Origin: Escherichia coli
Lineage (GTDB): Bacteria; Pseudomonadota; Gammaproteobacteria; Enterobacterales; Enterobacteriaceae
Assembly: GCF_003334765.1 (NCBI RefSeq)
Contig: NZ_QOWT01000004.1
Reading direction: 5' to 3' (one strand)
DNA: 64,000 nucleotides
Shown: one piece after another, positions 8,373 through 10,047 of the stretch
How positions within the stretch are numbered: position 1 is the first letter of the stretch
Layout of the letters: every line of letters begins with the position of its first letter
The notes under the pieces: generated by a model
What the model saw: only the letters and a program-made list of their open reading frames with translations
Databases searched by the model: none
Told to the model about the DNA's origin: nothing
Position numbers and translations under genes: made by a program

Positions 8373-8422
8373 AATTCCTCCTTGCGGTCACAAATCTCCG
8401 TCGCCTGTACACGACCCAATAA

Positions 8423-8458
8423 TACTTTGTACAATATACGCTAAAATTGTACAAAGTA
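8423..8458. promoter_or_regulatory. candidate MerR-type operator (perfect 13-bp inverted repeat)
   Basis: TACTTTGTACAAT-N10-ATTGTACAAAGTA upstream of bluR; an additional CTGTACAC at 8405-8412. Confidence 0.4.
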
Positions 8459-8576
8459 TAAATAAGATTTCAGCTAAATTGGATGAAACATTATTTTTAA
8501 TGTGGATTAAATTTAAACGTAACGTATTCATTTTCACGATGATTTACTGAAATCATGTGAAAGAATGTGCTGAAAA

Positions 8577-9788
8577 TTATTTTTTCTCTGGCCACGCTAT
8601 GGAAGGGATACCATTCAATTTAGCTTTAGCAAACAGATCTCCCTGAAACATCTCAATTCCTGCGGATTCAAGCCACATCCACTCTTCTGGTGTTGCCACG
8701 CCCATAGCACTGACTTGAATTTCAAGTGATGTACAGCATTTTATGATCGCCTGAATAATTGCCTGCCGTGGCCCACTTTTATGAACATTGGTAATCAATT
8801 CCTGACTGATTTTAATTCTGTCAGGCTGGAAGCGTGACAGGAGTAACAAACCAGCAAAACCTGCGCCAAAATGATCAATTGCTACACTGATACCAGCAGC
8901 CTTTAGCGATTTAATCGCTTCGGCAAACTCATCAAACCGAGATATGACTTCACTTTCAGTAAATTCAACGATGATTTGTTCAGGCACCAGAGCATTGGCC
9001 TTTATTTCATTAAGTAAAAAAGAGACTGCGTCAGGTTCGTTAACCAGGGTCATAGGTAATAGATTGATTGAAATCATTTTATCACCGAGCTCAAGTGCGT
9101 GTGCCATCGTGAATGCAAGCGCCTTACTTTTGAGATCCGCTGTGTAGATTTCCCCGTCTTTACGCTGCCCAACCGCTATGGCTGATGGGCTATCTTCATT
9201 TTTTTGCACAATGGCTTCAAAAGCGATTATCCGCCGCGATAAGGGATCGACAATAGGATGAAAGGCAAAGTGGTCGTTTATAGTTGGTGAAAGGGCACAG
9301 GAATCAAGTTCTTTATCAGATCCGTCAGCGATAAAAAGCCAGGAGTCTTCGGCAGGGATCTCGAAATAGGTTGATTGTTCGGTTGCAAGGACAAAAGTAC
9401 GAAAAAATTGTAGCGCTCTGTCATCATAAGTTAGCTGAAATTTTGATGTGCCTTTGTCGAATACGGCCTGTAAAACGTCATCTCGCTCGTGCAGGCGCAA
9501 ATCAAATAATTCCATTCCCGCTTTGCCAAAACGGCGAGCAGGCGCGTAATCGCACAGCAGCTCAACAATATTATAGTGCCGTGGATCCTGGCATATAGCC
9601 CGATATATCATTTTAACCTGTTCTTCCGGACCTTCCAGAAGCTGGAAAAAATGAGAACCATTAAACAGTAAGATCCCTGTTACGTCAGACTGCATGTTCC
9701 TGCGATTTGCTATCGAAACCATTTCTTCGATTTTTTTGACAGGTTCGTCGTCACGTATATGGCTACGATAAATAAGGGTGGTAAGCAT
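8577..9788 (-). CDS. bluF: blue-light sensor BLUF-EAL protein BluF (YcgF)
   Basis: N-terminal BLUF-like region and C-terminal EAL-like domain whose signature reads EAI (AFEAIVQ) rather than EAL; start at MLTTLIYRSH gives 403 aa; the ORF extends to 9866. Confidence 0.9.
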   Translation of the reverse strand: MLTTLIYRSHIRDDEPVKKIEEMVSIANRRNMQSDVTGILLFNGSHFFQLLEGPEEQVKMIYRAICQDPRHYNIVELLCDYAPARRFGKAGMELFDLRLHERDDVLQAVFDKGTSKFQLTYDDRALQFFRTFVLATEQSTYFEIPAEDSWLFIADGSDKELDSCALSPTINDHFAFHPIVDPLSRRIIAFEAIVQKNEDSPSAIAVGQRKDGEIYTADLKSKALAFTMAHALELGDKMISINLLPMTLVNEPDAVSFLLNEIKANALVPEQIIVEFTESEVISRFDEFAEAIKSLKAAGISVAIDHFGAGFAGLLLLSRFQPDRIKISQELITNVHKSGPRQAIIQAIIKCCTSLEIQVSAMGVATPEEWMWLESAGIEMFQGDLFAKAKLNGIPSIAWPEKK

Positions 9789-10025
9789 TAACAATCCAGG
9801 GTAATGGGTGAGGCGAGAGTAAGACGGTAACAGACATATCTTCTTGTGTCTTTCTTTTAATACCAAAACATAACCGTTTCTTTACATTGATAAAAAATGG
9901 AAAAAGTTGAACACTAGTTGGCGAAAAATCTTGTATAGATTGTCAGTTAAATGATGCAATATGTTTTATCATAACACATTGTTTTATATGCATTAGCACT
10001 AATTGCAAAAAATTAATTTATCATT

Positions 10026-10047
10026 CTGTACACATATTTCGTACAAT
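10026..10047. promoter_or_regulatory. candidate BluR operator in the ycgZ promoter
   Basis: CTGTACAC-atatttc-GTACAA, 55-75 bp upstream of the ycgZ start; shares CTGTACAC with the bluR upstream region. Confidence 0.35.

What the first reader, a model, noticed from the sequence alone, without database searches (positions are those of the whole stretch)
8405..10047. TGTACA-type palindromes upstream of bluR and ycgZ: candidate BluR operators
Upstream of bluR there is a perfect 13-bp inverted repeat TACTTTGTACAAT-N10-ATTGTACAAAGTA (8423-8458) plus CTGTACAC (8405-8412). The ycgZ promoter region carries CTGTACAC-N7-GTACAA (10026-10047). MerR-family regulators bind dyad sites within promoter spacers, and BluR is the MerR-like repressor of ycgZ-ymgA-ariR that the BLUF protein BluF antagonises. 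The shared motif suggests both autoregulation and ycgZ control.
Basis: partly seen in the sequence, partly recalled or inferred. Interest (0 to 1): 0.4.

Follow-up and report, generated by a model that had tools for sequence, protein, structure and literature searches.

The report
BluR operators at ycgZ and bluR
The TGTACA repeats in front of ycgZ are the already published binding site of the E. coli blue-light repressor BluR, and the perfect palindrome in front of bluR itself is an unreported, strongly conserved site of the same kind that most likely lets BluR switch off its own gene.

Summary
The bluR-upstream inverted repeat is in fact 14 bp long (8422-8435/8446-8459). Arms that long appeared in only 2 of 5000 shuffles.

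The ycgZ element (10026-10046) is already known. It is the DNase I-footprinted BluR operator, and the mutated bases C-39, T-38, G-37, G-24 and C-21 (Tschowri 2012) map exactly onto it.

I found no report of the bluR palindrome in the searchable literature. It lies on the bluR core promoter, at about -33 to +5 from the published start site, and it flanks the -10 element.

Among 72 BluR-like genes from other genera, 56 carry TGTACA-N12-14-TGTACA at the same distance from the start codon (about 0.26 expected). These include Erwiniaceae genes in a different genomic context with no bluF. The consensus, AAGTTGTACA-N13-TGTACAACTT, resembles the MlrA box.

The best reading is a self-operator giving negative autoregulation. 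That it is a functional site is well supported. BluR as the binder, and repression as the effect, are inferred.

The third element (8405-8412) is not conserved and is polymorphic within E. coli.

This is an ordinary kind of feature: half already known, half a new instance of a known type.

The parts
8422..8459 (.). Perfect 14-bp inverted repeat ATACTTTGTACAAT-N10-ATTGTACAAAGTAT. Proposed BluR/MlrA-type self-operator of bluR, at about -33 to +5 relative to the bluR transcription start.
   Evidence: sequence. (2 of 5000 shuffles reach 14 bp). (equivalent TGTACA-N12-14-TGTACA upstream of 56 of 72 BluR-like genes). (invariant in 5 divergent E. coli alleles).
8448..8453 (.). Promoter-distal TGTACA hexamer of the palindrome (about -27 to -22 of bluR).
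8428..8433 (.). Promoter-proximal TGTACA hexamer of the palindrome (about -7 to -2 of bluR). It overlaps the last base of the -10 element and abuts the start site.
   Evidence: The start site comes from PMC3509220.
8433..8438 (-). Predicted bluR -10 hexamer TATATT, lying in the palindrome's loop and proximal arm.
   Evidence: TTTATA-18-TATATT, 9 of 12 matches. It is positioned correctly for the published 5' end.
8457..8462 (-). Predicted bluR -35 hexamer TTTATA, overlapping the outer end of the distal arm.
8426..8427 (-). bluR transcription start, published as 54 nt upstream of the GTG start codon at 8372.
   Evidence: PMC3509220, primer extension. The counting convention was calibrated on the ycgZ mutant names.
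8405..8412 (.). Third element CTGTACAC (GTGTACAG on the bluR strand, +15 to +22). Doubtful auxiliary site: specific to E. coli, polymorphic, and close to an RcdA half-site.
   Evidence: (TGTACA becomes TGTAGA in 2 of 5 alleles). (no equivalent in most genera). (RcdA box TTGTGTACA/TGTACACAA).
7641..8372 (-). bluR (ycgE): MerR-type HTH domain followed by the MlrA helical and MlrA C-terminal domains.
8577..9788 (-). bluF (ycgF): BLUF-EAL anti-repressor of BluR.
   Evidence: PMC3509220.
10026..10046 (+). Published BluR operator in the ycgZ promoter: C-TGTACA (10027-10032, -38 to -33), then N7, then cGTACA (10040-10045, -25 to -20).
   Evidence: PMC3509220 footprint, EMSA and lacZ mutants. Mutant coordinates from its supplement. 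Conserved as TGTACA-N7/8-TGTACA in about 40 of 44 orthologous ycgZ promoters.
10029..10058 (+). ycgZ sigma-S promoter: -35 TACACA (10029-10034), 18-bp spacer, extended -10 TGcTATTGT (10050-10058). Transcription starts at 10065.
   Evidence: PMC3509220, PMC6900184, and the sequence.
10102..10338 (+). ycgZ, first gene of the BluR-repressed ycgZ-ymgA-ariR-ymgC operon.

Best explanation
There are two operators of the BluR/MlrA type.

(1) The ycgZ site is the established BluR operator. BluR sits on TGTACA-N7-cGTACA across the -35 element and the spacer and blocks sigma-S RNA polymerase. Light-activated BluF pulls BluR off. This is shown in the literature.

(2) The palindrome upstream of bluR is a second operator of the same family, placed on the bluR core promoter. 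Its hexamers lie at about -27/-22 and -7/-2 and bracket the -10 element. BluR bound there would exclude sigma-70 RNA polymerase and repress its own synthesis. Blue light plus BluF, by sequestering BluR, would then de-repress bluR as well as ycgZ. That would give negative feedback which restores repressor levels and caps a protein that is toxic when overproduced.

The presence, position and conservation of the site are shown here. Which protein binds it, the sign of the effect and the feedback logic are inferred.

The wider half-site spacing (centre to centre 19-20 bp, against 13 bp at ycgZ) matches the MlrA box. It is plausible because BluR is predicted to have a CarH-like fold rather than a coiled-coil MerR fold, and the CarH family is known for flexible operator geometry.
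For: - Sequence and significance.
- Published bluR start site: 54 nt upstream of the start codon. This puts the palindrome at -33 to +5, and the promoter scan finds TTTATA-18-TATATT in the right register.
- Conservation: 56 of 72 BluR-like genes from more than 15 genera have TGTACA-N12-14-TGTACA (at most 1 mismatch) between -110 and -41 of the start codon. The background rate is 0.0036 per such window, about 0.26 loci expected. Spacer bases vary freely while the hexamers and the palindromic flanks AAGT...ACTT are kept.
- The site travels with the gene. It is present upstream of Erwiniaceae genes that sit in the mlrA/yehW/yehX context and have no bluF or ycgZ. It is therefore not a bluF terminator or a bluF-related signal.
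- Binding domain: residues 1-70, which hold the DNA-binding domain, are nearly invariant across these proteins.
- BluR also binds the MlrA box of csgD, whose spacing is like that of the bluR site.
- BluR overexpression is toxic, which gives a reason for tight self-control.
- Fold: the model (pLDDT 82) matches full-length CarH best. CarH-family DNA-binding domains read TnnACA in variable operator layouts.
Against: - No binding or expression experiment on the bluR promoter is available. The 2012 paper mapped the bluR start site but does not mention this palindrome or autoregulation.
- The half-site spacing (N14; N13 in most genera) differs from the only footprinted BluR site (N7).
- MlrA shares the recognition helix and could be the binder.
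- The position relative to the promoter is known only for E. coli. In 38 of 58 other loci a TAnnnT hexamer lies exactly 16 nt after the proximal hexamer, which suggests a different promoter register there, with the proximal hexamer acting as the -35 element.
- Six BluR-like loci lack any pair, and ten (the Enterobacter cloacae complex and Kosakonia) have an N7 pair instead.
- The loci are phylogenetically related, so the counts overstate the number of independent events.
- The hexamer columns of the logo were the search anchors.
Confidence: 0.62

Rival explanations
1. The palindrome is bound mainly by the paralogue MlrA, so it is cross-regulation rather than autoregulation. Through it the MlrA/c-di-GMP curli module would set bluR transcription.
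For: The consensus AAGTTGTACA-N13-TGTACAACTT is closer in flanks and spacing to the MlrA box, AAAATTGTACA-N12-TGTACAATTTT / AAAGTTGTACA-N12-TGCACAATTTT, than to the N7 BluR site. The helix-turn-helix regions of MlrA and BluR differ at only four residues. In Erwiniaceae the site sits upstream of the positional mlrA orthologue.
Against: The site co-occurs with the adjacent BluR-like gene in every context, which is the signature of a self-operator. Enterobacteriaceae mlrA genes themselves lack it. BluR binds the MlrA box in vitro, so the wide spacing does not exclude BluR. The two readings are not mutually exclusive.
Confidence: 0.17
2. The TGTACA elements, especially the two CTGTACAC copies, are sites for the TetR-family regulator RcdA (YbjK). 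Its box is TTGTnnACA and its palindrome is TTGTGTACAttTGTACACAA.
For: RcdA was selected on and footprints the ycgF-ycgZ spacer and activates ycgF. TCGTGTACA (8413 down to 8405 on the bluR strand) and TGTACACAT (10027-10035) each match an RcdA half-site at 8 of 9 positions (sequence).
Against: The RcdA SELEX lists contain the ycgF-ycgZ spacer but not the bluF-bluR spacer. The conserved unit upstream of bluR is TTGTACAA, not TTGTGTACA, with a fixed 13-nt gap unlike the 2-3-nt gap of the RcdA palindrome. The CTGTACAC copy near bluR is not conserved.
Confidence: 0.06
3. No dedicated regulator binds here. The repeat is only promoter sequence (TTGTAC as a -35-like element, TACAAT/TATATT as -10-like elements), or it forms an RNA hairpin that ends or stabilises the bluF transcript.
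For: The hexamers resemble promoter elements. The scan lists several promoter-like combinations that use them, and in other genera TTGTAC-17-TAnnnT is conserved. The RNA would fold to -16.9 kcal/mol, z = -3.9.
Against: No terminator-like site is found: the stem is AU-only and has no U-tract. The distal hexamer and the palindromic flanks are conserved although they match no promoter element in either register. The site persists where the upstream gene is a divergent XRE-cupin regulator and not bluF. The identical hexamer is a proven BluR contact at ycgZ.
Confidence: 0.08
4. It is a chance palindrome in AT-rich intergenic DNA.
For: TGTACA and TTGTACAA are not enriched in the window as a whole.
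Against: Only 2 of 5000 shuffles reach a 14-bp arm. 56 of 72 orthologous loci carry the pair, against about 0.26 expected.
Confidence: 0.01

Closest known systems
BluR operator of the ycgZ-ymgABC promoter (Tschowri, Lindenberg and Hengge 2012, PMC3509220)
   Same: The ycgZ element of the finding is this site. The bluR palindrome shares the (T)GTACA recognition hexamer, overlaps a core promoter with an 18-bp spacer, and has one hexamer in the spacer at about -25.
   Different: At ycgZ the hexamers are 7 nt apart (centre to centre 13 bp) and cover -38 to -20. At bluR they are 14 nt apart (20 bp) and cover -27 to -2. Only the ycgZ site has binding and mutational data.
[quoted passage not shown] 2010, as quoted in PMC3509220 and PMC9662190)
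   Same: It is an extended palindrome with the same arms (AAAgTTGTACA ... TGTACAAnTTT), a wide gap (12 nt) and an A/T-rich spacer. BluR binds it weakly in vitro.
   Different: The gap is 13 nt in most genera and 14 nt in E. coli. The MlrA box lies far upstream and activates, whereas the bluR site lies on the core promoter.
CarH/LitR B12-dependent photoreceptor repressors and their operators
   Same: The predicted BluR fold matches full-length CarH: a MerR-type winged helix, a helical bundle and a Rossmann-like domain. TGTACA fits the CarH repeat core TnnACA. The operators overlap the -35 or -10 element. The operator layout is plastic, and both are light-response repressors.
   Different: CarH operators are tandem 11-bp direct repeats bound by tetramers. 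BluR has no known B12 ligand and is released by the protein BluF. The oligomeric state of BluR on DNA is unknown.
Classical MerR-family autoregulation (MerR at merO; CueR, SoxR, ZntR operators)
   Same: The regulator has a MerR-type DNA-binding domain, binds a dyad inside a promoter with an over-long spacer, and controls its own gene.
   Different: [quoted passage not shown] Both BluR sites are off-centre (-30 and -14.5), and BluR acts only as a repressor.

Membership tests
BluR operator (as defined at ycgZ) | Two (T)GTACA half-sites whose mutation abolishes BluR binding | tested here: met
   ycgZ: 10027-10032 and 10040-10045, identical to the mutated bases. bluR: two perfect TGTACA hexamers at 8428-8433 and 8448-8453.
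BluR operator (as defined at ycgZ) | Half-site spacing of the footprinted site (7 nt between hexamers) | tested here: not met
   This applies to the bluR site, which has 14 nt in E. coli and 13 nt in most genera. The feature is met for the ycgZ site and its orthologues.
BluR operator (as defined at ycgZ) | Overlaps the core promoter elements of the regulated gene | tested here: met
   Published start sites place the bluR palindrome at -33 to +5 and the ycgZ site at -39 to -20. Promoter scan.
BluR operator (as defined at ycgZ) | Physically bound by BluR, with BluR-dependent repression | not testable with these tools
   For ycgZ this is shown in PMC3509220. For the bluR site no experiment was found in 10 literature searches.
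BluR operator (as defined at ycgZ) | Conserved upstream of orthologous target genes | tested here: met
   bluR: 56 of 72 loci with N12-14 and 10 with N7-8. ycgZ: about 40 of 44 loci with N7/8.
MlrA box | Palindrome AAAnTTGTACA ... TGTACAAnTTT | tested here: met
   The cross-genus consensus is aaGTTGTACA ... TGTACAa(c)(t)T. The E. coli sequence is ACTTTGTACA ... TGTACAAAGT.
MlrA box | 12-nt gap between the hexamers | tested here: not met
   The gap is 14 nt in E. coli. Across genera, exact hexamer pairs split as 36 loci with 13 nt, 5 with 12 nt and 3 with 14 nt.
MlrA box | Upstream activating position (more than 100 bp from the start site) | tested here: not met
   The bluR site lies on the core promoter.
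Canonical MerR-type operator | [quoted passage not shown] | tested here: not met
   The spacers are 18 bp. The dyad centres are near -30 (ycgZ) and -14.5 (bluR), from the coordinates.
Canonical MerR-type regulator (protein) | Long antiparallel coiled-coil dimerisation helix after the winged helix | tested here: inconclusive
   The AlphaFold model shows a helical bundle and a Rossmann-like domain. It matches CarH (E about 1e-9 over about 275 columns) ahead of the coiled-coil MerR proteins, which align only over about 110 columns. It is a monomer model only.
Intrinsic terminator of bluF | G+C-rich stem followed by a U-tract | tested here: not met
   No terminator-like site in 8300-10150. The stem has a single G-C pair and no U-run follows it.
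RcdA box | TTGTnnACA units, palindromic as TTGTGTACA-tt-TGTACACAA | tested here: inconclusive
   The two CTGTACAC elements match a half-site at 8 of 9 positions. The conserved TTGTACAA arms do not fit, and the bluF-bluR spacer is absent from the RcdA SELEX lists.

The most novel reading that the evidence does not exclude
The TGTACA-N13-TGTACA element is the ancestral self-operator of the whole MlrA/BluR lineage.

- It is kept at bluR and at Erwiniaceae mlrA, and lost at Enterobacteriaceae mlrA.
- These regulators are B12-less descendants of CarH-type light repressors, with loosely tethered DNA-binding domains that read TnnACA hexamers.
- That would explain two separately conserved operator geometries: 13 bp at ycgZ and 19-20 bp at the regulator's own gene.
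- In E. coli it would close a negative feedback loop, so the blue-light/BluF response would adapt rather than act as a simple switch.
Probability: 0.4. Interest if true: 0.45.

Novelty: new member of a known kind. Interest (0 to 1): 0.3.

Why it matters
The ycgZ half adds nothing new.

The bluR half would add a feedback arm to a well-studied small circuit: BluF, BluR, Ymg, Rcs and curli/biofilm control. Light or cold would raise BluR synthesis while BluF inactivates BluR, which predicts adaptation and a ceiling on a toxic repressor.

It also doubles the number of natural BluR-type operators. It shows that the family uses two conserved half-site spacings. This gives a concrete test of how a CarH-like MerR protein reads DNA, and of whether MlrA and BluR cross-talk at each other's sites.

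Tried and rejected
- Window-wide enrichment: TGTACA and TTGTACAA are not enriched in the window. Only the pairing and the location of the hexamers are special.
- bluF terminator or RNA hairpin: rejected. There is no terminator-like signal, the stem is AU-only, and the site persists where no bluF lies upstream.
- LexA-type CTG-N10-CAG reading of CTGTACAC: the sequence does not fit.
- Hidden middle hexamer: I looked for one that would turn the N13 sites into two overlapping N7 sites. The logo shows no TGTACA-like columns in the spacer.
- Within-E. coli polymorphism as a test: none of 14 variable columns falls in the 38-bp palindrome, but only about 2.6 would be expected, so this is weak on its own.
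- Literature: I searched for autoregulation, ChIP, DAP-seq, SELEX and iModulon data on BluR. One search was wasted because 'blur' matches ordinary English. In PPTP-seq the bluR guide dropped out, so there are no autoregulation data. Tschowri 2009 and Ogasawara 2010 are not held in the library, so a statement about bluR self-control in either paper cannot be excluded.
- SrsR: the SrsR (YgfI) box reported for the bluR region lies inside bluF (8854-8864), not at the palindrome.
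Full report
**Observation.** The window around the finding is the E. coli locus iraM-ycgX-bluR-bluF / ycgZ-ymgA-ariR-ymgC. It is 100% identical to many annotated chromosomes. bluR is 7641-8372 (-), bluF is 8577-9788 (-) and ycgZ is 10102-10338 (+).

The reported sequences are all present:
- CTGTACAC lies at 8405-8412.
- The inverted repeat is one base longer per arm than stated: ATACTTTGTACAAT / ATTGTACAAAGTAT at 8422-8435 / 8446-8459 with a 10-nt loop.

A perfect arm of 14 bp was reached in 2 of 5000 dinucleotide-preserving shuffles of the 204-bp spacer. 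The hexamer is not enriched over the window as a whole. However, the only three close pairs of TGTACA-like hexamers in 64 kb all lie in these two promoter regions.

**The ycgZ element is already known.** Tschowri, Lindenberg and Hengge 2012 (PMC3509220) footprinted tag-free BluR on the ycgZ promoter. They described a protected site with GTACA...GTACA / TGTAC...GTACA half-sites overlapping the -35 element and the spacer. They confirmed it by EMSA and by lacZ fusions carrying point mutations.

The supplement names the mutations C-39A/T-38G/G-37A and G-24A/C-21A and gives the oligonucleotides.

The promoter is -35 TACACA (10029-10034), an 18-bp spacer, and an extended -10 TGcTATTGT (10050-10058). 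In 44 orthologous loci the ycgZ promoter keeps TGTACA-N7/8-TGTACA in about 40.

**The bluR palindrome lies on the bluR core promoter.** The same paper mapped the bluR 5' end 54 nt upstream of the start codon and states that bluR is transcribed by sigma-70 polymerase independently of bluF. That puts +1 at 8426/8427 on the minus strand.

The promoter scan finds TTTATA(8462-8457)-18-TATATT(8438-8433) in the correct register. The palindrome therefore spans about -33 to +5, with its hexamers at -27/-22 and -7/-2 bracketing the -10 element. A protein bound there would exclude RNA polymerase.

The paper does not mention the palindrome or autoregulation. I could not see its Fig. 1B, so I could not compare these hexamers with the -10 and -35 elements boxed there. 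Neither did any of the other papers I could search. In the one genome-wide autoregulation screen, the bluR guide dropped out. Tschowri 2009 and Ogasawara 2010 could not be read.

**Conservation.** A scan of one genome per species with a BluR alignment returned 80 loci.
- 43 carry bluF immediately upstream of bluR; 40 of these also show the divergent ycgZ and ariR genes, and the other three sit on contigs that end inside bluF. They come from Citrobacter, Pseudocitrobacter, Kluyvera, Klebsiella, Enterobacter, Lelliottia, Atlantibacter, Cedecea, Kosakonia, Buttiauxella, Phytobacter, Pluralibacter and others.
- 29 have a BluR-like gene (54-68% identity) with no bluF or ycgZ; most are from Erwiniaceae.
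- 8 (50-51% identity) are Enterobacteriaceae mlrA loci.

Of the 72 BluR-like loci, 56 have TGTACA-N12-14-TGTACA (at most one mismatch) between -110 and -41 of the start codon. The background rate elsewhere in the same loci is 0.0036 per window, about 0.26 loci expected. Ten loci (the Enterobacter cloacae complex and Kosakonia) have an N7 pair instead, and six have none. The three loci with a 63-nt bluF-bluR spacer (L010, L014, L017) are among those six.

Exact hexamer pairs at this spacing occur 44 times in these upstream regions and once in 583 kb of flanking DNA. The distance from the proximal hexamer to the start codon is 51-64 nt, against 55 nt in E. coli.

Anchored on the hexamers, the spacer and outer sequence vary freely. 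The flanks, which were not selected for, are palindromic: A-4 A-3 G-2 T-1 ... A C T T. This gives AAGTTGTACA-N13-TGTACAACTT with an A-tract in the spacer. That is close to the MlrA box AAAATTGTACA-N12-TGTACAATTTT.

Among five divergent E. coli alleles the whole palindrome is invariant. This is weak evidence by itself.

**The site travels with the gene.** Most of the Erwiniaceae genes are followed by convergent yehW/yehX-like ABC transporter genes, as are the Enterobacteriaceae mlrA loci and E. coli mlrA. They are therefore positional mlrA orthologues. Yet they are closer in sequence to BluR (about 65%) than to MlrA (about 55%).

They carry the N13 pair even though their upstream neighbour is a divergent XRE-cupin regulator. 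E. coli and Enterobacter mlrA have no such pair.

So the element is found next to family members in two unrelated contexts. This is the pattern expected of a self-operator. It excludes any role tied to bluF, such as a terminator, which the scan and the fold also argue against.

**Mechanism.** Shown:
- The hexamer is a BluR contact at ycgZ.
- BluR also binds the wide-spaced MlrA box of csgD.
- BluR acts only as a repressor.
- BluF releases it.
- BluR overexpression is toxic.

Inferred: BluR binds 8422-8459 and represses bluR, so BluF and light induce both ycgZ and bluR, giving negative feedback.

The difference between 13-bp and 19-20-bp half-site spacing would be awkward for a rigid coiled-coil MerR dimer. 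However, BluR consists of a MerR winged helix plus the MlrA_helical and MlrA_C domains. Its closest solved relatives by sequence are LitR and CarH. An AlphaFold model (pLDDT 82) matches full-length Thermus CarH best (E about 1e-9, about 275 columns), ahead of the classical MerR proteins. CarH-family DNA-binding domains read 11-bp units with the core TnnACA, which TGTACA satisfies on both strands, in notably plastic operator layouts. This makes two geometries plausible but does not prove the mode of binding.

**Caveats and rivals.**
- MlrA shares the recognition helix and may bind the same site. This is cross-regulation and is not exclusive of autoregulation.
- RcdA (box TTGTnnACA) footprints the ycgF-ycgZ spacer. 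The two CTGTACAC elements match its half-site at 8 of 9 positions. But the bluF-bluR spacer is not among its SELEX targets, and the conserved arms do not fit.
- The third element (8405-8412) is not conserved across genera and is TGTAGA in two E. coli alleles. It should not be counted as an operator.
- Outside Escherichia and Citrobacter, a TAnnnT hexamer starts exactly 16 nt after the proximal hexamer in 38 of 58 loci. The likely promoter there is TTGTAC-17-TAnnnT, with the proximal hexamer as the -35 element. The operator still overlaps the core promoter, but in a different register from E. coli.
- The loci are related by descent, and the hexamer columns were the search anchors.

**Verdict.** The other half is a new but unsurprising instance of a known kind, a self-operator of a MerR-like repressor. 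It is well supported as a functional site and moderately supported as BluR autorepression.

Noticed in passing
window 7641-8372 (BluR protein): The predicted BluR structure (pLDDT 82) matches full-length Thermus thermophilus CarH and B12-binding domains of MerR-type photoreceptors better than it matches classical coiled-coil MerR proteins. NCBIfam also gives CarH as the second-best family. A blue-light pathway repressor may therefore descend from a B12-type light repressor.
   Followed up: partly
L012, L013, L019-L023, L026-L032, L036-L038, L040, L042, L046, L049, L058, L060 (about 3900-4730): Erwiniaceae genes in the mlrA position (next to yehW/yehX-like genes) are about 65% identical to E. 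coli BluR but only about 55% identical to E. coli MlrA. They carry the TGTACA-N13-TGTACA pair, whereas Enterobacteriaceae mlrA genes (L073-L080, L085) do not.
   Followed up: partly
L008-L068, ycgZ upstream regions: In most genera the ycgZ promoter has a third hexamer, TGTATA, exactly 13 nt after the second TGTACA and overlapping the -10 element (consensus TGTACA-N7-TGTACA-N13-TGTATAaCTT). The N13 geometry is therefore also present at ycgZ. E. coli and Citrobacter lack it in that register.
   Followed up: no
L039, L043, L047, L048, L050, L053, L054, L055, L059 (about 3925-3945): In the Enterobacter cloacae complex the bluR upstream site is TATACA-N7-TGTACA, the ycgZ-type spacing, instead of the N13 pair.
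   Followed up: no
38 of 58 loci, 16 nt after the proximal hexamer; window 8406-8411: A conserved TAnnnT (TAAGGT, TATGGT, TAGTTT, TACGGT) suggests the promoter TTGTAC-17-TAnnnT in other genera. In E. coli the non-conserved third TGTACA occupies exactly that offset.
   Followed up: partly
L010, L014, L017 (3935-4001): The bluF-bluR spacer is only 63 nt and has no hexamer pair. bluF and bluR may be co-transcribed in these species.
   Followed up: no
L012-L060, about 90-130 nt upstream of the mlrA-like start (e.g. L021 3850-3900): A separate palindrome, CTCATATATGAGAT, lies between the mlrA-like gene and a divergent XRE-cupin (PuuR-like) regulator gene. It is probably that regulator's own operator.
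   Followed up: no
window 8854-8864 (-): The SrsR (YgfI) box variant GCAGGTTTTGC, reported for the bluR region by genomic SELEX (PMC9181523), lies inside the bluF coding sequence and not in the bluF-bluR spacer.
   Followed up: partly
window 9927-9940: TTGTATAGATTGTC in the bluF-ycgZ spacer contains the TTGTATAGA sequence that the RcdA paper (PMC3535384) names as an RcdA-box-like site.
   Followed up: no
window 4639-6315: A full-length icd ORF (4639-5889) is followed directly by iraM (5992-6315). Strain ML35 has mcrC and a partial icd copy (e14 prophage remnants) at that place. The window's strain therefore appears to lack e14.
   Followed up: no
hit H1, NZ_AP022105.1: In strain WP5-S17-ESBL-10 bluF is split by an IS4-like ISVsa5 insertion.
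   Followed up: no
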